Below, piece after piece: positions 35,101 through 43,479 of a stretch of DNA of 64,000 bases. How positions within the stretch are numbered: position 1 is the first letter of the stretch; each line of letters begins with the position of its first letter. Below the pieces are notes generated by a model that was not told the origin of the DNA, made no database searches, and saw only the letters and a program-made list of their open reading frames with translations. The translations under genes and the position numbers were made by a program. The DNA lies in NCBI RefSeq assembly GCF_988242995.1, contig NZ_OZ547043.1; one strand, written 5' to 3'.

Positions 35101-35967
35101 TCACTTTCCAATTAATTGAAATAAATATTGACCATACTGTGTTTTCTCCATAATCCTGGCCTCAGTCAGGACCTGCTCCGCAGTCAGCCATTTATTGCGC
35201 AAAGCTATTTCTTCTAAGCAAGCAACTTTATATCCTTGACGCTTTTCGATAGTATGAACAAATTGAGAAGCTTCAATAAGGCTATCATGTGTTCCCGTAT
35301 CCAACCAAGCGAACCCCCTTCCCAAGAGTTCTACATTAAGCATATCCCGCTCAAGATACATTTTATTTATTGAAGTGATTTCAAGCTCACCACGAGGAGA
35401 TGGTTTAACTTGCTTTGCAAAATCCACCACCTGATTATCATAGAAATAGAGTCCAGTTATGGCCCAATTAGATTTTGGTGTTTGTGGCTTCTCTTCGACA
35501 GAGAGCACCTTAAATGATTCGTCAAATTCTACAATGCCAAATCGTTCAGGATCCATAACCTGATAGCCAAAAACTGTAGCTCCTCTTTTTCTGGAAGCCA
35601 CCTGTTCCAGTTTGCGACCGAAACTTTGACCGAAGAAAATATTATCCCCTAAAACCAGGGCACATTCATCACCAGCGATGAACTCTTCACCAATAATAAA
35701 AGCCTGCGCCAACCCATCAGGACTTGGTTGAATAGCATATTGAAGGTTAATTCCAAACCGGGATCCGTCTCCTAGCAGGCGTTTATACGATGATAAGTCC
35801 TCGGGAGTAGAAATAAGAAGTATATCTTTTATCCCTGCCAGCATTAATACTGAAATAGGGTAATATACCATTGGCTTATCATAAATAGGTAGGAGCTGTT
35901 TTGATACCCCTCGAGTAATCGGATAAAGTCGGGTACCAGAACCTCCCGCTAATATAATTCCTTTCAT
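35101..35967 (-). CDS. rmlA: glucose-1-phosphate thymidylyltransferase
   Basis: 288 aa, [16 protein letters not shown] motif; high identity to recalled RfbA. Confidence 0.9.
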
Positions 35968-36111: not shown

Positions 36112-36642
36112 TTAATCTAATTTTTTTAGGTATGTCGCTGGAGTGCCGCCTACTAATTCCTTTTCACCGACATCTTTTAGAACTACAGAATTTGCTGCAA
36201 CTATAGCTCCATTGTTAATAACAATAGGTCCCAAAATAACAGATCCAGTGGCCAATATAACATCGTTGCCAATAACAGGACGAAGTTCCTTGTTATATTT
36301 CATATCAAGTGTTTTTGCACCAATAGTGACATTTTGATATATAGTGCAGTTTTCACCTATACGCGCCGCACCGATAACTATGCCAAAGGTATGTGGTATG
36401 AAAAGTCCACCTTTAATCTCACATTCAGTTGCGATCTCAATGTTAAAAATGAGGACGTTTAAAAGTGAACAACATTTTGATATTCTTCTGAATCCTTTTT
36501 CTTTTAAAGAATAGGATGTCCTATATATTACATTGGGAATCAAACGAGGGCTAAAAATTCTAAAATAGTCTTTAAATTTAAAAGCAGATTCATTCCCAAT
36601 CAATTCTTTATATCTTTGAATATCTTGTTGTATATTTTTCAT
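36112..36642 (-). CDS. hexapeptide-repeat O-acetyltransferase
   Basis: 176 aa with left-handed beta-helix hexapeptide repeats; AT-rich. Confidence 0.65.
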   Translation of the reverse strand: MKNIQQDIQRYKELIGNESAFKFKDYFRIFSPRLIPNVIYRTSYSLKEKGFRRISKCCSLLNVLIFNIEIATECEIKGGLFIPHTFGIVIGAARIGENCTIYQNVTIGAKTLDMKYNKELRPVIGNDVILATGSVILGPIVINNGAIVAANSVVLKDVGEKELVGGTPATYLKKLD

Positions 36643-37699
36643 TTTTTATTCCTGCGTATCCTGCTAAAAACACCAGATATAGCCAAAACATAGGGAAAAG
36701 GAAGGTTAGTTTAAGGCAGGGGAGCAGGCATAATAACATCAATCTAAGTGAGAATCGTGAATATTTTAGGAACAATACCAGCCATGATACACTAAGGATA
36801 CTGCCTAACCAAAAGCCAAAAACGATGAAATTACTTCCGAATAACGTCATATCAAAAAGAGACTGAAAATAGTCTGGTGCATTGTCATAATACCCAACCA
36901 TACCGTGGCCAATATTAAAAACAAGAGGGCTATCAAAGAATGATTTCATCAACTCAAGTTTATATGATGTGCTACCATCACTACCAGATGAAATATAAGA
37001 CATACGCCACATAATGTTTTGATATATTATCGGAGAAACCAGTACTAACGATATTAACCCGGTTGCGATCCACTTTAGTGTCAATCTACAGGTAAGAATA
37101 AAAAATAACATAACGCAGATAACAGAGAAAGTCGAACCGGATAACACCATACACATTAATGCTATATAACTTAGTAATGAGTTATTATTAGCTACAATAT
37201 ACCTCATCACTAATAATGTGACCATATGTATAGAGAAAATACTCGGTTCGGCAAATACTCCTGTTGCTCTGTAATCGAAACCGTCATAACTGCTACGGTG
37301 TGGAGGACCTAACAAGAACTTCCCATAATCGATATCCACATTAATGATTTTGAAAGCTAAATACTGCAACAGGAAAGTAAAAATGTGAAACTTGATGCAA
37401 AAATCGATCACCTTAAGCCAGTCACAGCTTTTAATTCTTTTTACACAATAGCTATAGATTGATGGTACTGTCAATGCATAAAAGCAGCATACCAAAGTAA
37501 AAATAAATATTTTATCCACTACGCCAAAGAATACATGAAAAATAAGCGATGTGAACGATACCAGAATAAATATCAACCCTTGCGATGAAACCTTACATTT
37601 ACCCTGTATAAACACCAGAAAAAAAACGCAAAACTGAATAATAAAAAAAACCGGACTAAAAATGAAAAGAGTACCAAAAAGAAAATATATATTAGCCAT
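36608..37699 (-). CDS. wzy: O-antigen polymerase Wzy (putative)
   Basis: 363-aa polytopic membrane protein inside the O-antigen cluster; very AT-rich. Confidence 0.6.
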   Translation of the reverse strand: MANIYFLFGTLFIFSPVFFIIQFCVFFLVFIQGKCKVSSQGLIFILVSFTSLIFHVFFGVVDKIFIFTLVCCFYALTVPSIYSYCVKRIKSCDWLKVIDFCIKFHIFTFLLQYLAFKIINVDIDYGKFLLGPPHRSSYDGFDYRATGVFAEPSIFSIHMVTLLVMRYIVANNNSLLSYIALMCMVLSGSTFSVICVMLFFILTCRLTLKWIATGLISLVLVSPIIYQNIMWRMSYISSGSDGSTSYKLELMKSFFDSPLVFNIGHGMVGYYDNAPDYFQSLFDMTLFGSNFIVFGFWLGSILSVSWLVLFLKYSRFSLRLMLLCLLPCLKLTFLFPMFWLYLVFLAGYAGIKNEKYTTRYSKI

Positions 37700-38669
37700 T
37701 TCTTTCCCTTTTTGAATAACCCTCTATATAATACATAGCCAAGACTAACTTGTAAAATATTGCTCTGATTTTAAATTTATTCCTATTGTCTAACTTATTA
37801 AGAACAACCCTTACAAATTTATTAAGTTTAATACTATTAGCGCAAGACAAAGCTACTCTAAGCACAGTTGACTTCATACTACCTTTCCGCTCAGCCTGGG
37901 GAAATAGCAATTTATCTACAATTTCAGGATGTTTCTTAACCAAAAGCGGTACTGAGTACCTTGCATAAGGAATCATTCTTTCACATGCCCTATCGAGGGT
38001 AGGGGTGTCGTTATCGTAGAGTAAAGCATCGCTACAAAAGAAAAACGGAACAGAGCTTAAACGAAGCCGCGCCCCAAATTCTTCATCCTCACAACCATAA
38101 TGCCGGAATGATTCATCGAACCCTTTCTGTGCTTCAAACTCGGATTTGCTAATCAGGAAAGCATCGCTTGCAAAGTAGCGATACTCAATTTTAACAGTTC
38201 CTTTATATCTATTCCCCAAATATCGGGAGTCAAAGTAGTGTAGGTAATTGCTGTCGCGGGTTAAATCTTGCCGACATCTGACATTAGCCCTTGCTACAAA
38301 AGGCTTCTCGCAGGACAAAATCATTGAATGCAGGCTATCAAGACAACCTTGCTGGAGCAAATTGTCTATGTCGACAAAAAATAACCATTCATTGCTTGCT
38401 GATTTCGCAGCTCTATTTCGAGAAAAGGCGCGACCTTCATTTATTTCATTACGTAAGAACACTAACCGCCATTCGCGCTCATTAAATTTTTCAGAAAAGG
38501 CAATAGTTGTGTCTTCCAAATTCACCTCAGAACCGTCATCGATGATGATAAGTTCAATATTCTTTAGTATATTCTTTTGTCCATGAGTATTAGCGAGCAG
38601 AGCTGAGATGAAAGTTTCTACTTTTGATGAGCTACCGAGAACAGGGCTAATAATGCTAATCATTTGCAC
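37692..38669 (-). CDS. family 2 glycosyltransferase
   Basis: IIDDGS and VDIDN DxD-type motifs. Confidence 0.7.
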   Translation of the reverse strand: MQMISIISPVLGSSSKVETFISALLANTHGQKNILKNIELIIIDDGSEVNLEDTTIAFSEKFNEREWRLVFLRNEINEGRAFSRNRAAKSASNEWLFFVDIDNLLQQGCLDSLHSMILSCEKPFVARANVRCRQDLTRDSNYLHYFDSRYLGNRYKGTVKIEYRYFASDAFLISKSEFEAQKGFDESFRHYGCEDEEFGARLRLSSVPFFFCSDALLYDNDTPTLDRACERMIPYARYSVPLLVKKHPEIVDKLLFPQAERKGSMKSTVLRVALSCANSIKLNKFVRVVLNKLDNRNKFKIRAIFYKLVLAMYYIEGYSKRERNG

Positions 38670-39918
38670 GTTCCATTAAATATTTTTTAGTTACAGTTAA
38701 ATACCAATAGATTGAAACTAATATTGAAAAGAAAAGAGAAATATATAATGCAATAAAGATGCTTGGTATCGGCGCAGTAATAGCAGAGACTTTCAATGCG
38801 CTATAGATGCTCAGACATAATAAAAATACAAGACACCATTTAATGGTGTAATAGTAGTAACTCTTTGATGCAAGGTTAGCTGCGTTGATCAAATTATCGA
38901 CAGCAAAAAATGGCAACAAAAAGACCAGAATATTATAATAATTTGCCGATGTGACATAGTCATGGCCGAAAACAAATGTAAAGATATATGGTGTAAATGG
39001 CTTTAACGAAAATGAGAATAACGAAAAAGCAGTAAACATTATTATGGATAAGACAATAAGATTTCTGTTGAAAATTTTCCACTTCTTGTTTTTGTATAAA
39101 AGGATGGGGGCCAAAACCTGTATCAATATTAAGGTTACTGAAGCTGTATTCTCATTAATCTGTGATGCAGCACTATATATACCATAATCAACTGGTGAAA
39201 TGTTACCTTTCAGTAAGAATCTGTCAATTTTCATAAATAATGCATAGGCTACAACCCCTCCCCAGATGAAAAAACTGCGTTTTAACAGGAAGCCTATATC
39301 ATTTAGTCTAACAAGACTTATTCTGGGGAACTTACAAATTGAACAACAGTACATGACTATCGCAACAAAAATGCCCTCCAGTACCCATGGCAATGCAAGG
39401 AACTTGATATCGAAATTTATCACTATAAATAAGTAATATAGTGTTAGTATCCTGATAATGCAGCCAAAGATCTGGATGATACCTGAGAGGTATAATTTCC
39501 CTTCAGATTGCCATTTTGCAAAGCCTACCATCAATGGCTCTCGTGCCAAGAGAGTAACGGACGAAAATAGCAAGTAATACCTTACAATCTCACTTTCAGC
39601 TGTAATTGCGAGGATTACACTGACAGTAGCGACTAATGATGATACAGATAATCTTGCAAAAAAAATTGTATTACAATAAATCAATTTCTTGCGTAATGAA
39701 TAGCGCGATAACTGAGGGACAACTGATTCTGACCCGCACATCCAAGTTAGTGACATTAAAATATTTGAAAAAGTAAATGCATATTGCCAAATGCCAAACT
39801 GCTCAATTGGAAGCGCTTTTGAGATAAGATGGTTAGCATAAATAGCACTAATAATCTGTACAAATCGCTCAAACAACAGGACAAGCAATCCCGCAATAAT
39901 TGATTTATTCACGAACAC
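38656..39918 (-). CDS. wzx: O-antigen flippase Wzx (putative)
   Basis: 420-aa protein with about 12 hydrophobic segments. Confidence 0.65.
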   Translation of the reverse strand: MFVNKSIIAGLLVLLFERFVQIISAIYANHLISKALPIEQFGIWQYAFTFSNILMSLTWMCGSESVVPQLSRYSLRKKLIYCNTIFFARLSVSSLVATVSVILAITAESEIVRYYLLFSSVTLLAREPLMVGFAKWQSEGKLYLSGIIQIFGCIIRILTLYYLFIVINFDIKFLALPWVLEGIFVAIVMYCCSICKFPRISLVRLNDIGFLLKRSFFIWGGVVAYALFMKIDRFLLKGNISPVDYGIYSAASQINENTASVTLILIQVLAPILLYKNKKWKIFNRNLIVLSIIMFTAFSLFSFSLKPFTPYIFTFVFGHDYVTSANYYNILVFLLPFFAVDNLINAANLASKSYYYYTIKWCLVFLLCLSIYSALKVSAITAPIPSIFIALYISLFFSILVSIYWYLTVTKKYLMERAND

Positions 39919-40903
39919 CTTCCGGTGAGATTATTTTTTTCACCCATTGCTGTAAAGAATATTGTTCTCTATTTTTGTAATTAACATTCGGTGCGTTAAT
40001 AAAATTCTCAGGTACTATGACCTGATGTCTTTTTACTACGCAGATCATATTAGGGTCATAAAAATCGTACTTTTTTATGTCTTCATTCGTGGTAATAATT
40101 TTTTTATTTAACCCGATGCATTCTATTGTTCGCATTGTCAGACCGCGCTGCCTTGGATGATGAATATCGATGATAATTTCAGAGCACTTCATCATTTCAA
40201 CAACTTCAGATTGTGATAATGGTTCAAATTCTACGTCTGTATTTATTTTTTTTCCGCTTAATAAATTCTTCAGTTTAAAAATAATTTCATTCTGAAAATA
40301 AAAGAATGTATAAGCATTAATGTCTTTAATATTTCTTACTTCAGCAGTAATGCAATTGACCAAATCAACGCGATCTGAATGAGCTGTACCGATAAAACAA
40401 AGATCGTATTTTAGCGAATGCTCATGCTTATTGTCAAAACGCGGCGAATAAAACAGCGGAAGAAATGTTACTCCCCATTTTTCAGCATCATCACGTTCAA
40501 AGGTGAAAACCGAATCAAACTGATTTATTATTCTTTTAACTTTGGGTTTGTTATTGACCGAATCCCACAAATACATAATGAATTTACAGTGTTCATTTTT
40601 TACTTTAACGGTTTTTTTTATGGCCTGTAAAATTTCATGATCAATTGCTTCAGGATTTAAAATAAATACATTATCGATTTTTTTGTTGACAATTTGCCGT
40701 AGTAATTTTTTATAATAACTTGAGTTATACTTTTTAATCAAAATACTACAACCTAACCTTAGCAATGATTTATAAATAGCATTATTGCTCGGCCGCTCAT
40801 CCCAATAGATAACGTCATTAGTTAATTCTAATTCTTTGACTATTTCTTTTTCATAATTAAAAAACTTGGGAGAAATAAACAATACTGTATTTTTGTACCC
40901 CAT
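39905..40903 (-). CDS. putative glycosyltransferase, family unassigned
   Basis: 332-aa soluble protein in the O-antigen operon; no motif recognised by eye. Confidence 0.35.
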   Translation of the reverse strand: MGYKNTVLFISPKFFNYEKEIVKELELTNDVIYWDERPSNNAIYKSLLRLGCSILIKKYNSSYYKKLLRQIVNKKIDNVFILNPEAIDHEILQAIKKTVKVKNEHCKFIMYLWDSVNNKPKVKRIINQFDSVFTFERDDAEKWGVTFLPLFYSPRFDNKHEHSLKYDLCFIGTAHSDRVDLVNCITAEVRNIKDINAYTFFYFQNEIIFKLKNLLSGKKINTDVEFEPLSQSEVVEMMKCSEIIIDIHHPRQRGLTMRTIECIGLNKKIITTNEDIKKYDFYDPNMICVVKRHQVIVPENFINAPNVNYKNREQYSLQQWVKKIISPEGVRE

Positions 40904-40904
40904 T

Positions 40905-41720
40905 TTATCTTCCCTGAGATTTTTTGAATTCTTTTATCATATCCACTAAATCATTCAATACATTTTTATAATGATGTGGGACTATTGAGTTAGTTTTTTG
41001 CATCGTGATAACAGGAAATGTTTCGCATGTATCATTCTTGTGCCACTGTATATTACAACCTGTTTCAGATATTAAAATGTCAGCGATGGATTTTGCTGAA
41101 ACATTATATCCAGATGCAATGTTATAAATATCTCCGGGTGAAGTTATAGATTCTGCTAGCTTATACATGACGGCAACCACATCATCTACCGATACATAAT
41201 CCTTCTCGTAGTCAGAGCTAACATACATATCGACATGATTGTTATTGATTGCATTTTTTATTATTTGCGGAAGGAATAACGGGCTATTTAGTGCGAGTCC
41301 ATAAACATTTGATGGTCGGACGACCACAACGTTCTTTTTACTTCTTAGACATAACTCTTCAGCAACCAATTTTGTCAAATTGAAAAGCTTGCGACCATCA
41401 TTGTGACAAATTTTTAGATCTGAATTTTCTGCAGAATCTCTGGAGTTCAAATATACACGAGTGGAAGAAATGTAGACTAATTTCTGGAAATTAGCTTGTG
41501 TAAGTATTACTTTTAGCTTATTGACATTTGCATCCACAACATTATAGGCATCACTTTTGCAATCGCCATAGCCTGCGCAATAAAAGACGGTACCAAGGTC
41601 AATTTCTTTGTTATAAAGATAGTCTCTGTCAGGGCAGAAACATTCTTTATTCATTGATTCTAAAAATGTTACCATATGTGAACCAATGAAACCTGAACTA
41701 CCAACGACTGTATACTTCAT
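40905..41720 (-). CDS. NAD(P)-dependent extended-SDR epimerase/reductase-like protein
   Basis: N-terminal GSSGFIGS Rossmann motif; 271 aa; occupies the position of a dTDP-sugar 4-reductase. Confidence 0.55.
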   Translation of the reverse strand: MKYTVVGSSGFIGSHMVTFLESMNKECFCPDRDYLYNKEIDLGTVFYCAGYGDCKSDAYNVVDANVNKLKVILTQANFQKLVYISSTRVYLNSRDSAENSDLKICHNDGRKLFNLTKLVAEELCLRSKKNVVVVRPSNVYGLALNSPLFLPQIIKNAINNNHVDMYVSSDYEKDYVSVDDVVAVMYKLAESITSPGDIYNIASGYNVSAKSIADILISETGCNIQWHKNDTCETFPVITMQKTNSIVPHHYKNVLNDLVDMIKEFKKSQGR

Positions 41721-41782: not shown

Positions 41783-42325
41783 TTATAAGCTAGCTTCTTT
41801 AAATTCTGAAAAACTAATTAACGCGTTGTCTTTAGATGACATAATTGGCATGTCTATCGGCCATTGTATATTCAGTTCTTTGTCATTCCAGATTATCCCC
41901 CCTTCATCGGTAGGATCATAGAAGTCTGTGCATTTGTAATGGAAATCCGCATACTCACTTAATACACAAAAACCATGTGCAAATCCAGGTGGGATATAGA
42001 TTTGATTATTTTTATCCCCAGAAAGTATAACACCTACATGCTTTCCAAAAGACGAAGATCCAGGTCTTAAATCAACAGCCACATCAAAAACTTCTCCACT
42101 GATGACACTTACTAATTTACCTTGAGGATTATTTTTTTGAAAATGTAAACCTCGAAGCACATTTCTTGCTGAGCGTGATCGATTATCTTGTACAAATGCC
42201 TCAGTTATTCCTATGTCGTGATATTTCTTCTGATGCCATGCTTCCAAAAAGAAACCACGAGAGTCACCAAAGACTTTTGGCTCAATGATTACACAACCAG
42301 CAAGTGGAGTCTCAATTACCTTCAT
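41783..42325 (-). CDS. rmlC: dTDP-4-dehydrorhamnose 3,5-epimerase family protein (RmlC-like)
   Basis: 180 aa, EPKVFGDSRGFF...VQDN...RGLHFQ motifs typical of RmlC cupins. Confidence 0.8.
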   Translation of the reverse strand: MKVIETPLAGCVIIEPKVFGDSRGFFLEAWHQKKYHDIGITEAFVQDNRSRSARNVLRGLHFQKNNPQGKLVSVISGEVFDVAVDLRPGSSSFGKHVGVILSGDKNNQIYIPPGFAHGFCVLSEYADFHYKCTDFYDPTDEGGIIWNDKELNIQWPIDMPIMSSKDNALISFSEFKEASL

Positions 42326-42396
42326 AATTATAAACCTTGTATTATATTTTTTAAATTTGCTAATTTTTGATACAATTTAGCTACCTTTATCAGTTA

Positions 42397-43479
42397 CTAA
42401 CGCATCTTGTAGTTCTGCTCAATCCAGGTTTGGTACGCCCCACTTTTGATATTTTCAACCCATGAGGTGTTTGCCAGATACCATTCAACCGTTTTGCGAA
42501 TCCCACTTTCGAACGTCTCTTGCGGTTTCCAACCGAGCTCACGGCTGATTTTATCCGCATCGATCGCGTATCGACGGTCATGGCCTGGACGATCGGCAAC
42601 ATAGGTGATTTGTTCACGGTATGACACTGCTTTAGGTACGATCTCATCCAGCAGGTCGCAGATGGTATGTACAACATCGAGATTTTTCTTCTCGTTATGG
42701 CCACCGATGTTGTAGGTCTCACCAGGGATTCCTTTCGTCACCACGGTATATAACGCACGGGCATGGTCTTCAACATAGAGCCAGTCGCGAATCTGATCGC
42801 CTTTACCATAAATGGGTAACGATTTCCCTTCGAGAGCATTGAGAATAACCAAGGGAATCAACTTTTCAGGGAAATGGTATGGGCCATAGTTATTCGAACA
42901 GTTGGTCACCATTGTTGGAAGACCGTATGTACGCAGCCAGGCACGAACGAGATGGTCGCTGGAGGCTTTTGAAGCCGAATAAGGACTACTCGGCGCATAG
43001 GCGGTTTGTTCCGTGAAGAGAGGAAGAATACTCCCCTGCGCAACCTCATCCGGATGCGGTAAATCCCCATAAACTTCATCAGTAGAGATGTGATGGAAGC
43101 GGAATGTCGCCTTTCGCGCACTATCCAGTGAGGACCAGTATTGACGGGCTGTTTCTAAAAGAACATAAGTACCCACAATATTCGTTTCAATAAATGCAGC
43201 AGGGCCTGTAATTGAACGGTCAACATGGCTTTCAGCAGCCAGGTGCATCACTGCATCCGGCTGATGCTGAGAAAAAATTCGCGCCATTGCAGCAGCATCG
43301 CAAATATCCGCATGTTCAAAAACATAGCGTTCAGAATCAGAAACATCAGCAAGTGATTCCAGGTTTCCGGCGTACGTTAATTTATCGACATTAACAACAC
43401 TATCCTGCGTATTATTTATAATGTGACGAACTACAGCAGAACCAATAAATCCTGCGCCACCAGTAACAAGTATCTTCAC
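42397..43479 (-). CDS. rmlB: dTDP-glucose 4,6-dehydratase
   Basis: 360 aa, [20 protein letters not shown]; YxxxK motif present. Confidence 0.9.

What the first reader, a model, noticed from the sequence alone, without database searches (positions are those of the whole stretch)
40905..41720. SDR-like reductase candidate may lack the canonical catalytic tyrosine
By hand alignment, the region corresponding to the SDR YGxxK motif reads FNLTKLVAEE, which would put Phe in place of the catalytic Tyr. If real, this implies an atypical or inactive reductase. Hand alignment is unreliable, so this is low-confidence.
Basis: inference. Interest (0 to 1): 0.3.

Follow-up and report, generated by a model that had tools for sequence, protein, structure and literature searches.

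The report
Talose-sugar reductase lacking the catalytic tyrosine
This gene in the O-antigen cluster of the meningitis strain E. coli S88 most likely encodes the last enzyme of a rare-sugar (6-deoxy-L-talose) pathway; like all its close relatives it has phenylalanine where this enzyme superfamily normally has its catalytic tyrosine, so it is an unusual but evidently working enzyme rather than a dead one.

Summary
The ORF at 40905-41720 (minus strand, 271 aa) is an extended short-chain dehydrogenase/reductase (SDR). It has an intact GxxGxxG, the Ser/Thr wall (S85-S86-T87-R88) and K117. Every sequence, profile and family alignment puts F113 (codon TTC) where YxxxK has its Tyr.

This is not an S88 defect. 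F113 is invariant in 119/119 homologs of 49-78% identity.

The window is E. coli S88 (O45:K1:H7). The gene sits directly after rmlB-rmlC in an O-antigen cluster that has rmlA but no rmlD. In 27 related genome loci, an RmlC gene is immediately upstream in 21 and no locus has RmlD. E. coli O45 and O66, whose O-antigens contain 6-deoxy-L-talose, carry the same gene after rfbC.

Best reading: a working Tll-type dTDP-6-deoxy-L-lyxo-4-hexulose 4-reductase with a natural FxxxK motif.

In the wider ~270-aa family, 106 representatives have Tyr and 37 have Phe. Phe arose repeatedly and co-varies with residue 54. The S88 clade carries a fixed signature: G52-D53-C54, R110, F113, P136, A143, Y171.

How catalysis works without the Tyr is inferred, not shown. 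Interest is moderate.

The parts
40905..41720 (-). 271-aa extended SDR. [quoted passage not shown]
   Evidence: ORF. PF01370 E 2.5e-19. 100% identical to E. coli S88 WP_000878099.1, annotated 'NAD-dependent epimerase/dehydratase family protein'. AlphaFold pLDDT 94.1. Foldseek TM about 0.8 to nucleotide-sugar SDRs.
41682..41702 (-). Cofactor motif G7-S-S-G10-F-I-G13 (GxxGxxG).
   Evidence: Codons verified. G7, G10 and G13 are invariant in 119 homologs and in 142-143 of 144 sequences in the wider-family alignment.
41559..41567 (-). G52-D53-C54 loop after strand beta-4. C54 replaces the Phe that accompanies Tyr113 in Tyr-type relatives.
   Evidence: C54 is invariant in 119/119 close homologs. Position 54 is the strongest co-varying position with 113.
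41451..41468 (-). S85-S86-T87-R88-V-Y90, the Ser/Thr 'wall' of nucleotide-sugar SDRs. S86 aligns with the catalytic Ser/Thr.
   Evidence: S85, S86, R88 and Y90 are invariant in 119 homologs. In the 144-sequence wider-family alignment S85 and Y90 are in all 144, S86 in 139 and R88 in 140. S86 is invariant in the alignment that includes RmlD.
41370..41384 (-). F113-N-L-T-K117: FxxxK in place of YxxxK.
   Evidence: F113, N114 and K117 are invariant in 119/119 homologs.
41208..41210 (-). Y171, a Tyr specific to the Phe-type core clade (Ser in Tyr-type relatives). It sits two residues before the conserved K173-D174.
   Evidence: Y in all 17 core-clade representatives, against S in 90 of 106 Tyr-type representatives. 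Its position in 3D was not measured.
41783..42325 (-). rmlC (dTDP-4-dehydrorhamnose 3,5-epimerase). It supplies the 4-keto-L-sugar substrate.
   Evidence: TIGR01221 247.6 bits, cut-off 155.75. PF00908 E 2.2e-69.
42397..43479 (-). rmlB (dTDP-glucose 4,6-dehydratase).
   Evidence: NF007490 773 bits, cut-off 649.
35101..35967 (-). rmlA (glucose-1-phosphate thymidylyltransferase), at the gnd end of the cluster.
   Evidence: RefSeq annotation of S88. PF00483 E 1.1e-76.
39905..40903 (-). WaaS/CpsH-family glycosyltransferase. Its start lies 1 nt after the reductase stop. Candidate 6-deoxy-L-talosyltransferase.
   Evidence: NF053598 295 bits, cut-off 60. Junction TAAAATG. A homolog is present in 20 of 27 related genome loci.
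36112..36642 (-). Hexapeptide O-acetyltransferase. It could acetylate the 6-deoxy-talose, which is inference.
   Evidence: PF00132. RefSeq 'serine O-acetyltransferase'. Homologs in the O45 and O109 clusters at 42-51%.
36608..39918 (-). wzy (36608-37699), GT2 glycosyltransferase (37692-38663) and wzx (38656-39918): the rest of the O-unit assembly genes.
   Evidence: RefSeq annotation. Pfam GT2.

Best explanation
The gene encodes the terminal 4-ketoreductase of a dTDP-6-deoxy-L-hexose pathway. RmlA, RmlB and RmlC, all encoded in the same O-antigen cluster, make dTDP-6-deoxy-L-lyxo-4-hexulose. This protein reduces C4 with NAD(P)H.

The product is most probably dTDP-6-deoxy-L-talose (a Tll-type enzyme). 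The translationally coupled WaaS/CpsH-family glycosyltransferase would then put it into the O45(S88) O-unit.

The protein belongs to a mainly gammaproteobacterial clade of about 270-aa extended SDRs. In this clade the YxxxK tyrosine has been replaced, and fixed, as Phe. The change comes with a set of co-varying substitutions: F54 to C, D110 to R, L136 to P, D143 to A and S171 to Y.

Shown here: the Phe-for-Tyr replacement, its invariance, the retention of the cofactor motif, Ser wall and Lys, the gene context, and the correlation with 6-deoxy-talose serogroups.

Inferred: hydride transfer proceeds as in other SDRs, but the C4 oxygen is protonated or polarised without the Tyr. The most likely substitute is the invariant S86-T87-R88 wall together with K117, as described for the Tyr-less Mx3K dehydratase PglF. 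The clade-specific Y171, C54 or D53 may also contribute.
For: Identity and location:
- The window is E. coli S88 O45:K1:H7. Cluster order is galF-rmlB-rmlC-SDR-GT-wzx-GT2-wzy-acetyltransferase-rmlA-gnd, with no rmlD.

Family conservation:
- F113, K117, S85, S86, R88, Y90, N138 and G7/G10/G13 are invariant in 119 homologs.

Gene context in 27 genome loci carrying a homolog:
- RmlC lies within 59 nt upstream in 21 and somewhere in the locus in 25.
- RmlA is present in 23 and RmlB in 22.
- RmlD is present in 0.
- Metagenomic core-clade loci give the same picture.

Link to 6-deoxy-L-talose:
- E. coli O45:H2, O66 (NCTC9066) and O109 each have rfbC followed by this gene and no rfbD. All three read RRLFNLTK or RKLFNLTK.
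- The O45 O-antigen contains Glc, 6-deoxy-L-talose and FucNAc. O45, O45rel and O66 are the 6-deoxy-L-talose serogroups of Jann et al. 1995 (PMC7685785).
- The Tll ortholog of H. parainfluenzae, 87% identical to the A. actinomycetemcomitans D11S_1703 Tll, is 270 aa, against 294 aa for RmlD (PMC3989065 supplement). That matches this family's length class.
- rmlABC plus tll is the accepted dTDP-6-deoxy-talose gene set in Aeromonas and Enterobacter O-antigen clusters (PMC6124807; PMC7198725). Both genera are in the homolog list.

Precedent for activity without the Tyr:
- WbpM and PglF (Mx3K) are active. In PglF, Thr395/Asp396 of the Ser/Thr wall take the C4-OH proton (PMC8987622).
- In the wider family, Tyr-type P0144 and Phe-type P0138 sit in near-identical operons.
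Against: - No enzyme assay exists for this protein.
- I could not obtain the sequence of the biochemically characterised A. actinomycetemcomitans Tll. Homology to it, and whether it carries Phe or Tyr, is therefore untested.
- The S88 O-antigen structure itself was not available to me. Its identity with the published O45rel structure is inferred from gene content.
- Stereochemistry at C4 (talo versus rhamno) cannot be read from sequence.
No distances from S86, R88, Y171 or C54 to the substrate C4 oxygen were measured, so the proposed proton source is conjecture.
- Buttiauxella locus L002 and Colwellia locus L009 show no RmlC within 10 kb.
Confidence: 0.7

Rival explanations
1. Relocated tyrosine. 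The enzyme still uses a tyrosine general acid, but it comes from another part of the chain. Y171 is specific to the Phe-type core clade, and its phenol would reach the position normally held by the Tyr113 hydroxyl. On this reading the chemistry is canonical and only the wiring differs.
For: - Y171 is present in all 17 core-clade representatives. The same position is Ser in 90 of 106 Tyr-type relatives, a reciprocal Y113F/S171Y swap.
- Y171 lies two residues before the invariant K173-D174. By general knowledge of extended SDRs, that motif faces the NDP-sugar cleft.
Against: - 20 Phe-type representatives outside the core clade have no Tyr at 171; 19 of them have Ser. At least one, P0138, sits in the same operon type as Tyr-type enzymes.
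- By alignment, Y171 matches a Gln in the GDGxQxRD motif of other SDRs. From memory, that Gln lies near the diphosphate rather than C4.
- No coordinates were available to test the distance.
Confidence: 0.25
2. RmlD analogue. The protein reduces the same 4-keto sugar but gives dTDP-L-rhamnose, so the S88 O-unit contains L-rhamnose rather than 6-deoxy-L-talose.
For: - It occupies the rmlD slot in rmlBAC operons.
- The coupled glycosyltransferase belongs to the WaaS/CpsH family. From memory, WaaS is a rhamnosyltransferase.
Against: - It is not an RmlD family member. PF04321 scores 25.4 bits, below the 27-bit cut-off, and TIGR01214 gives no hit.
- E. coli O45 and O66 carry this gene, lack rmlD and contain 6-deoxy-L-talose.
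- Some loci carry both an RmlD-like gene and this gene (L033/L034), as the A. actinomycetemcomitans-type locus does. That argues for different products.
Confidence: 0.12
3. Inactive pseudo-enzyme. Loss of the Tyr killed catalysis, and the protein persists as a scaffold or nucleotide-sugar binder, like Tyr-less atypical SDRs of the NmrA type.
For: - Tyr-to-Phe is the classic inactivating SDR mutation. The engineered mutants 6zlj and 8rdi are among the best PDB matches.
Against: - The clusters encode no other 4-reductase, yet these serogroups make 6-deoxy-L-hexoses.
- Cofactor motif, Ser wall, Lys and N138 are strictly conserved.
- Phe itself is under selection: 119/119, with Tyr one base away.
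- Tyr-less nucleotide-sugar SDRs are known to be active.
Confidence: 0.04

Closest known systems
[quoted passage not shown] 2000; EC 1.1.1.339. The related E. coli O45 activity is EC 1.1.1.134; EC numbers are from memory.)
   Same: - Same pathway position, after RmlA, RmlB and RmlC.
- Same length class: 270 aa for the H. parainfluenzae ortholog.
- Found in serogroups that contain 6-deoxy-L-talose.
- Only weakly related to RmlD.
   Different: Direct sequence comparison with the characterised enzyme could not be made. I found no report that Tll-type enzymes carry FxxxK instead of YxxxK.
RmlD, dTDP-4-dehydrorhamnose reductase (PF04321 / TIGR01214)
   Same: Same substrate and same operon slot. It is an SDR with a short N-terminal half. 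Its LNVYGETK aligns with RKLFNLTK.
   Different: - RmlD has the canonical Tyr.
- The S88 protein is below the PF04321 cut-off and does not hit TIGR01214.
- Identity to K-12 RmlD is 15%.
- The expected product is the C4 epimer.
WbpM / PglF UDP-GlcNAc 4,6-dehydratases with an Mx3K dyad
   Same: These are nucleotide-sugar SDRs that naturally lack the catalytic Tyr and are still active. In them the Ser/Thr wall takes over C4-O proton transfer (PMC8987622).
   Different: They are dehydratases with tightly bound cofactor and a Thr-Asp-Lys wall, and Met replaces Tyr. Here the enzyme is a stand-alone reductase, Phe replaces Tyr, and the wall is Ser-Thr-Arg.
Engineered Tyr-to-Phe SDR mutants (B. cereus UDP-GlcA 4-epimerase Y149F, 6zlj; P. 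horikoshii GalE Y145F, 8rdi)
   Same: Identical FxxxK motif on the same helix. They score as well as or better than their wild-type parents against this protein.
   Different: Those are laboratory variants. From general knowledge, such mutants are made to cripple or trap the reaction. Here the Phe is natural, fixed, and accompanied by co-varying changes.
HSDL1 and NmrA-type atypical SDRs (from memory)
   Same: Natural loss of the SDR Tyr. HSDL1 has FxxxK.
   Different: Those proteins are reported as inactive or regulatory. This one sits in a biosynthetic operon as the only candidate for an essential step.

Membership tests
Extended SDR (NAD-dependent epimerase/dehydratase, PF01370) | Significant match to the family model and a two-domain Rossmann fold | tested here: met
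   PF01370 70.1 bits against a 20.9-bit cut-off. AlphaFold pLDDT 94.1. Foldseek TM 0.74-0.84 to nucleotide-sugar SDRs.
Extended SDR (NAD-dependent epimerase/dehydratase, PF01370) | N-terminal GxxGxxG cofactor motif | tested here: met
   G7-S-S-G10-F-I-G13, invariant in the family.
Extended SDR (NAD-dependent epimerase/dehydratase, PF01370) | Catalytic Ser/Thr after strand beta-5 | tested here: met
   S86 is invariant, also against RmlD. The S-S-T-R-V-Y stretch aligns with the SSS/STD wall of PDB homologs.
Extended SDR (NAD-dependent epimerase/dehydratase, PF01370) | YxxxK: catalytic Tyr | tested here: not met
   F113 sits at the Tyr position in all alignments. No conserved alternative YxxxK exists.
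Extended SDR (NAD-dependent epimerase/dehydratase, PF01370) | YxxxK: Lys | tested here: met
   K117 is invariant in 119/119 close homologs and 144/144 wider sequences.
Tll (dTDP-6-deoxy-L-talose-forming 4-reductase) | Encoded with rmlA, rmlB and rmlC, with the RmlD step otherwise unfilled | tested here: met
   S88 cluster. 21 of 27 loci have RmlC directly upstream and 0 of 27 have RmlD.
Tll (dTDP-6-deoxy-L-talose-forming 4-reductase) | Host glycan contains 6-deoxy-L-talose | tested here: inconclusive
   True by literature for E. coli O45, O45rel and O66, which carry homologs. The S88 O-antigen structure itself was not seen.
Tll (dTDP-6-deoxy-L-talose-forming 4-reductase) | Sequence homology to the characterised A. 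actinomycetemcomitans Tll | not tested
   The sequence could not be retrieved. Only the length class agrees: 270 aa.
Tll (dTDP-6-deoxy-L-talose-forming 4-reductase) | Catalyses NAD(P)H-dependent reduction to the L-talo product | not testable with these tools
   Needs an enzyme assay with product NMR.
RmlD (PF04321 / TIGR01214) | Reaches the family's curated score | tested here: not met
   PF04321 25.4 bits, below the 27-bit cut-off. TIGR01214 is not among the hits. 15% identity to K-12 RmlD.
Tyr-less active nucleotide-sugar SDRs (Mx3K: WbpM/PglF) | Met at the Tyr position, Thr-Asp-Lys wall, Polysacc_synt_2 family | tested here: not met
   Phe rather than Met, and the wall is S-T-R. PF02719 is not among the Pfam hits. 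This is an analogy of mechanism only.

The most novel reading that the evidence does not exclude
A whole family of stand-alone NDP-sugar 4-ketoreductases works without the SDR tyrosine.

The Tyr-to-Phe change has occurred about a dozen times in this family, each time tending to go with loss of the aromatic residue at position 54. In the dTDP-6-deoxy-talose clade it has been locked in with a new active-site set: C54, R110 and Y171.

That would mean the proton donor in these reductases is not the canonical Tyr at all. It would be the Ser-Thr-Arg wall or a relocated residue. The 'strictly conserved' Tyr would then be dispensable for simple keto-reduction of activated 4-keto sugars.
Probability: 0.45. 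Interest if true: 0.55.

Novelty: new variant of a known kind. Interest (0 to 1): 0.4.

Why it matters
The YxxxK tyrosine is the textbook catalytic residue of SDRs. It is routinely used to call a sequence 'active' or 'inactive'. Here that rule would wrongly condemn the only candidate 4-reductase of an O-antigen pathway. That O-antigen cluster is reported to be key to the virulence of the E. coli O45:K1:H7 neonatal meningitis clone (title of Plainvert et al. 2007, cited).

The family also offers a natural experiment. Tyr-type and Phe-type enzymes occur in the same operon types, and one residue (54) co-varies with the switch. This could be used to work out how a ketoreductase protonates its product without the Tyr.

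In practice, FxxxK together with G-D-C and Y171 is a usable sequence fingerprint. It could name these generically annotated 'NAD-dependent epimerase/dehydratase family proteins' and help predict 6-deoxy-L-talose in O-antigens.

Tried and rejected
Attempts that led nowhere:
- Getting the characterised A. actinomycetemcomitans Tll sequence, to see whether it has Phe or Tyr. The papers of Nakano 2000, Plainvert 2007 and Jimenez 2008 are not held. Cluster-member names for 20 representatives showed no Aggregatibacter or Haemophilus. Contexts of three unnamed representatives were not the Aggregatibacter-type locus.
- The afdb50 fold library, which might have named a Swiss-Prot Tll, was not installed.
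- Model coordinates are not exposed. Distances from Y171, C54 and R88 to the active site could not be measured.
- Literature searches for a reported Phe-for-Tyr in Tll or in nucleotide-sugar reductases found nothing on this family.

Explanations considered and rejected:
- Sequencing error or strain-specific mutation. The gene is identical in 36 genomes and the Phe is invariant in the family.
- Misalignment hiding a real YxxxK. The only two Y-x-x-x-K strings are unconserved loop sequences.
- Pseudogene. The ORF is full length, translationally coupled to the next gene and strongly conserved.
- dTDP-rhamnose 4-epimerase (Tle/WbiB type). There is no RmlD to make its substrate, and those enzymes keep the Tyr.
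Full report
**What is at the coordinates.**
The interval 40905-41720 is exactly one minus-strand ORF with an ATG start, 271 aa long. Upstream on the same strand lie a 180-aa and a 360-aa ORF. Downstream, starting 1 nt after its stop (TAAAATG), lies a 332-aa ORF.

Family scans give the following:
- The target matches PF01370, NAD-dependent epimerase/dehydratase, at E 2.5e-19 (70.1 bits, cut-off 20.9).
- It reaches only 25.4 bits on the RmlD substrate-binding domain PF04321, below the 27-bit cut-off.
- It reaches no NCBIfam equivalog cut-off.
- The neighbours are clear: RmlC (TIGR01221, 247.6 bits), RmlB (NF007490, 773 bits) and a WaaS/CpsH-family glycosyltransferase (NF053598, 295 bits).

**Where the window comes from.**
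The 4.9 kb around the gene is 100% identical to E. coli S88 (NC_011742.1) and to 35 other complete E. coli genomes. S88 is the sequenced O45:K1:H7 neonatal-meningitis strain (PMC3784414).

The RefSeq annotation gives the O-antigen cluster as galF, rfbB, rfbC, 'NAD-dependent epimerase/dehydratase family protein' (the target), WaaS/CpsH glycosyltransferase, 'S88 variant O45' wzx, GT2, wzy, an O-acetyltransferase, rfbA and gnd. There is no rfbD (rmlD). The cluster is low in G+C, 30-38% against about 53% in the flanks.

**Checking the observation.**
- phmmer against all PDB chain sequences prints five alignments. Three are to wild-type chains, and each puts F113 opposite the Tyr and K117 opposite the Lys of YxxxK: MoeE5 (6kv9), P. 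aeruginosa RMD (6x3b) and P. horikoshii GalE (8rdg). The other two are to engineered Tyr-to-Phe mutants, which carry Phe there.
- A profile built from 67 family members gives the same register. It adds the wild-type B. cereus UDP-GlcA 4-epimerase 6zl6 and the C. jejuni CDP-glucitol-pathway reductase 8v4g.
- The engineered Tyr-to-Phe mutant 6zlj (Y149F) scores slightly better than wild-type 6zl6, and 8rdi (Y145F) slightly better than wild-type 8rdg.
- Aligned with E. coli K-12 RmlD, LNVYGETKLAGE pairs with RKLFNLTKLVAEE.
- An AlphaFold2 model built on the family alignment is confident (mean pLDDT 94.1, pTM 0.91). It begins a helix at residue 111, so F113 and K117 lie on the helix that the alignments pair with the YxxxK motif.
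- Foldseek finds only nucleotide-sugar SDRs, with TM about 0.75-0.84 and at most 21% identity. No close relative has a solved structure.
- The only two Y-x-x-x-K strings in the protein, Y34-K38 and Y51-K55, lie in unconserved N-terminal loops.

The cofactor motif (G7, G10, G13), the Ser wall (S85-S86) and the Lys are present. The Tyr is not.

**It is a family trait, not a lesion.**
A search of 5.8 billion clustered proteins returned 514 relatives. Among the 119 full-length ones of 49-78% identity, the following are invariant:
- F113, N114 and K117.
- S85, S86, R88 and Y90.
- D108 and R110.
- G52 and C54 (D53 in 115 of 119).
- R135, S137 and N138.

These relatives come from Proteus, Morganella, Buttiauxella, Enterobacter, Cedecea, Vibrio, Shewanella, Aeromonas, Photobacterium, Pseudoalteromonas and others. 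The S88 codon is TTC, and Tyr (TAC) is one base away. Invariant Phe over this much divergence therefore means selection for Phe.

**The wider family.**
An exhaustive HMMER scan of 1.84 billion 50%-identity representatives found 156 proteins at E below 1e-30. In an alignment of 143 of them plus the query, position 113 is Tyr in 106, Phe in 37 and Val in 1. K117, S85, Y90, E121 and R135 are in all 144, and G50 likewise. D174 and N200 are each in 143 of 144.

The S88 protein belongs to a tight group of 17 sequences, the query plus 16 representatives. Fifteen of them read G-[DI]-C at positions 52-54. All 17 have R110, F113 and Y171, and most have P136 and A143. Tyr-type relatives have A52-D53-F54, D110, Y113, L136, D143 and S171.

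On a neighbour-joining tree this group is monophyletic. Fitch parsimony needs at least 13 changes at position 113, nearly all between Tyr and Phe. The tree is crude at about 30% identity, so this is an order of magnitude, not a count.

Outside the core group, the position that tracks residue 113 best is residue 54. It is aromatic in 101 of 106 Tyr-type sequences but in only 8 of 20 Phe-type sequences (Fisher p = 3e-8, not corrected for phylogeny). Residues 54 and 113 therefore behave as a coupled pair.

**What the gene does: context.**
I fetched 24 genome loci with a family member and three more E. coli loci. I then searched them with the window's RmlB and RmlC and with K-12 RmlA and RmlD.

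| Feature | Loci (of 27) |
|---|---|
| RmlC ends within 59 nt upstream of the gene | 21 |
| RmlC anywhere in the locus | 25 |
| RmlA present | 23 |
| RmlB present | 22 |
| RmlD present | 0 |

 The usual order is rmlB-rmlA-rmlC-X, so the gene sits in the rmlD slot. Metagenomic core-clade loci agree. One of these, L033/L034, carries an RmlD-like gene as well. That matches the Aggregatibacter serotype c-type locus, which has both rmlD and tll (PMC3989065 supplement).

**What the gene does: correlation with chemistry.**
In E. coli the gene occurs in four O-antigen clusters:
- S88-type O45, in 36 genomes.
- Classical O45, for example O45:H2 FWSEC0003.
- O66, in NCTC9066.
- O109.

In each it lies directly after rfbC, and none of the clusters has rfbD. 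All four proteins read R[RK]LFNLTK.

The O45 antigen contains D-Glc, 6-deoxy-L-talose and D-FucNAc. O45, O45rel and O66 are the 6-deoxy-L-talose polysaccharides of Jann et al. 1995 (PMC7685785).

The S88 cluster lacks the three genes that classical O45 has between rfbB and rfbC and that fit FucNAc synthesis and initiation. It keeps two glycosyltransferases and an acetyltransferase. From memory, that fits the published O45rel unit, Glc-6dTal2Ac-GlcNAc. The match is an inference.

The gene set rmlABC plus tll is the accepted route to dTDP-6-deoxy-L-talose (PMC11549994; PMC6124807; PMC7198725). The H. parainfluenzae ortholog of the characterised Tll is 270 aa, against 294 aa for RmlD. That is this family's length.

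I could not obtain the A. actinomycetemcomitans Tll sequence. Direct homology, and whether that enzyme has Phe, remains untested.

**Outgroup context.**
Tyr-type relatives (P0141, P0144, P0140) and a non-core Phe-type relative (P0138) lie in operons with these genes:
- a 256-aa nucleotidyltransferase;
- a 4,6-dehydratase;
- a C-methyltransferase;
- an RmlC-like epimerase;
- often a CmcI-type O-methyltransferase.

The whole family therefore looks like 4-ketoreductases acting after a 3,5-epimerase. Tyr-type and Phe-type members occur in essentially the same operon (P0144 against P0138).

**How it most likely works.**
Shown:
- The Rossmann motif, the Ser wall and the Lys are kept.
- The Tyr is replaced.
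- The protein is the only candidate for the C4 reduction.

Inferred:
- NAD(P)H delivers hydride to C4 as in other SDRs. The conserved basic residue R32, after strand beta-2, hints at NADPH, but this is weak.
- The C4 oxygen is polarised or protonated without a Tyr.

The best-documented analogy is the Mx3K dehydratases WbpM and PglF, which are active without the Tyr. In PglF, Thr395/Asp396 of the Ser/Thr wall handle the C4-OH proton and the adjacent Lys397 acts on C5/C6 (PMC8987622). The equivalent wall here is S86-T87-R88, which is invariant or nearly so across both Tyr-type and Phe-type members.

The clade-specific Y171 and C54, or the conserved D53, are alternative or additional proton sources. 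I could not measure their positions because model coordinates are not exposed.

**Rivals.**
- Relocated tyrosine (Y171): attractive for the core clade, but it cannot explain the 20 Phe-type sequences outside the core clade, none of which has Tyr at 171.
- RmlD analogue making dTDP-rhamnose: disfavoured by the 6-deoxy-talose chemistry of O45 and O66, and by loci that carry both genes.
- Pseudo-enzyme: disfavoured by conservation, by operon position and by the absence of any other reductase.

**Novelty and score.**
The gene is known and generically annotated, and tll genes are known. I found no report of the following:
- that this reductase family carries FxxxK;
- that the Phe is fixed with a co-varying set of residues;
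- that Tyr and Phe interchange repeatedly in the wider family.

Tyr-less active nucleotide-sugar SDRs already exist, which tempers the surprise. I rate this a new variant of a known kind, with moderate interest (0.4).

Noticed in passing
window 39905-40903 (-), and loci L002-L028: The WaaS/CpsH-family glycosyltransferase starts 1 nt after the reductase stop. A homolog (27-62% identity) is present in 20 of the 27 related genome loci and in L033, L034, L036 and L039. Reductase and glycosyltransferase seem to travel as a module, which makes this the candidate 6-deoxy-L-talosyltransferase.
   Followed up: partly
L002 10001-15600 (Buttiauxella sp. A111) versus window 36112-41720: The six genes tll-GT-wzx-GT2-wzy-acetyltransferase are syntenic with the S88 unit at 60-69% amino-acid identity. 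The closest single homologs of the reductase are from Proteus mirabilis (78%) and Morganella (89%, partial). The S88 cluster has 30-38% G+C. This suggests the O45(S88) cluster was acquired from another enterobacterial lineage.
   Followed up: partly
L030, L031, L032, L038: Tyr-type and non-core Phe-type relatives sit in operons with a 256-aa nucleotidyltransferase, a 4,6-dehydratase, a C-methyltransferase, an RmlC-like epimerase and (in L030, L031 and L038) a CmcI-type O-methyltransferase. This gene set would fit a CDP-6-deoxy-3-C-methyl-2-O-methyl-L-talose (vinelose-like) pathway. That idea is from memory and untested.
   Followed up: no
L037 7323-9270 and L028 8333-9687 (E. coli O109, strain YZ22MPE6): The O109 cluster has rfbB, rfbA, rfbC and a 58%-identical FxxxK reductase but no rfbD, alongside genes attributed to L-RhaNAc3NAc synthesis. 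Whether O109 contains 6-deoxy-talose or rhamnose was not established here.
   Followed up: partly
L033/L034 15458-16360: One core-clade locus carries an RmlD-like gene (34% identical to K-12 RmlD) together with the FxxxK reductase. The Aggregatibacter serotype c-type locus likewise has both rmlD and tll. This is consistent with the two reductases giving different C4 epimers.
   Followed up: no
window 41559-41570 and 41607-41621 (residues 51-55 and 34-38): The protein has two Y-x-x-x-K strings, YGDCK and YLYNK, that could mislead a motif scan. Neither the Tyr nor the Lys is conserved in the family.
   Followed up: yes
window 42390-42722 (-) and 42906-43121 (-): Two ORFs of 110 and 71 aa lie inside rmlB in other frames. 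They are listed mechanically and are almost certainly not genes.
   Followed up: no
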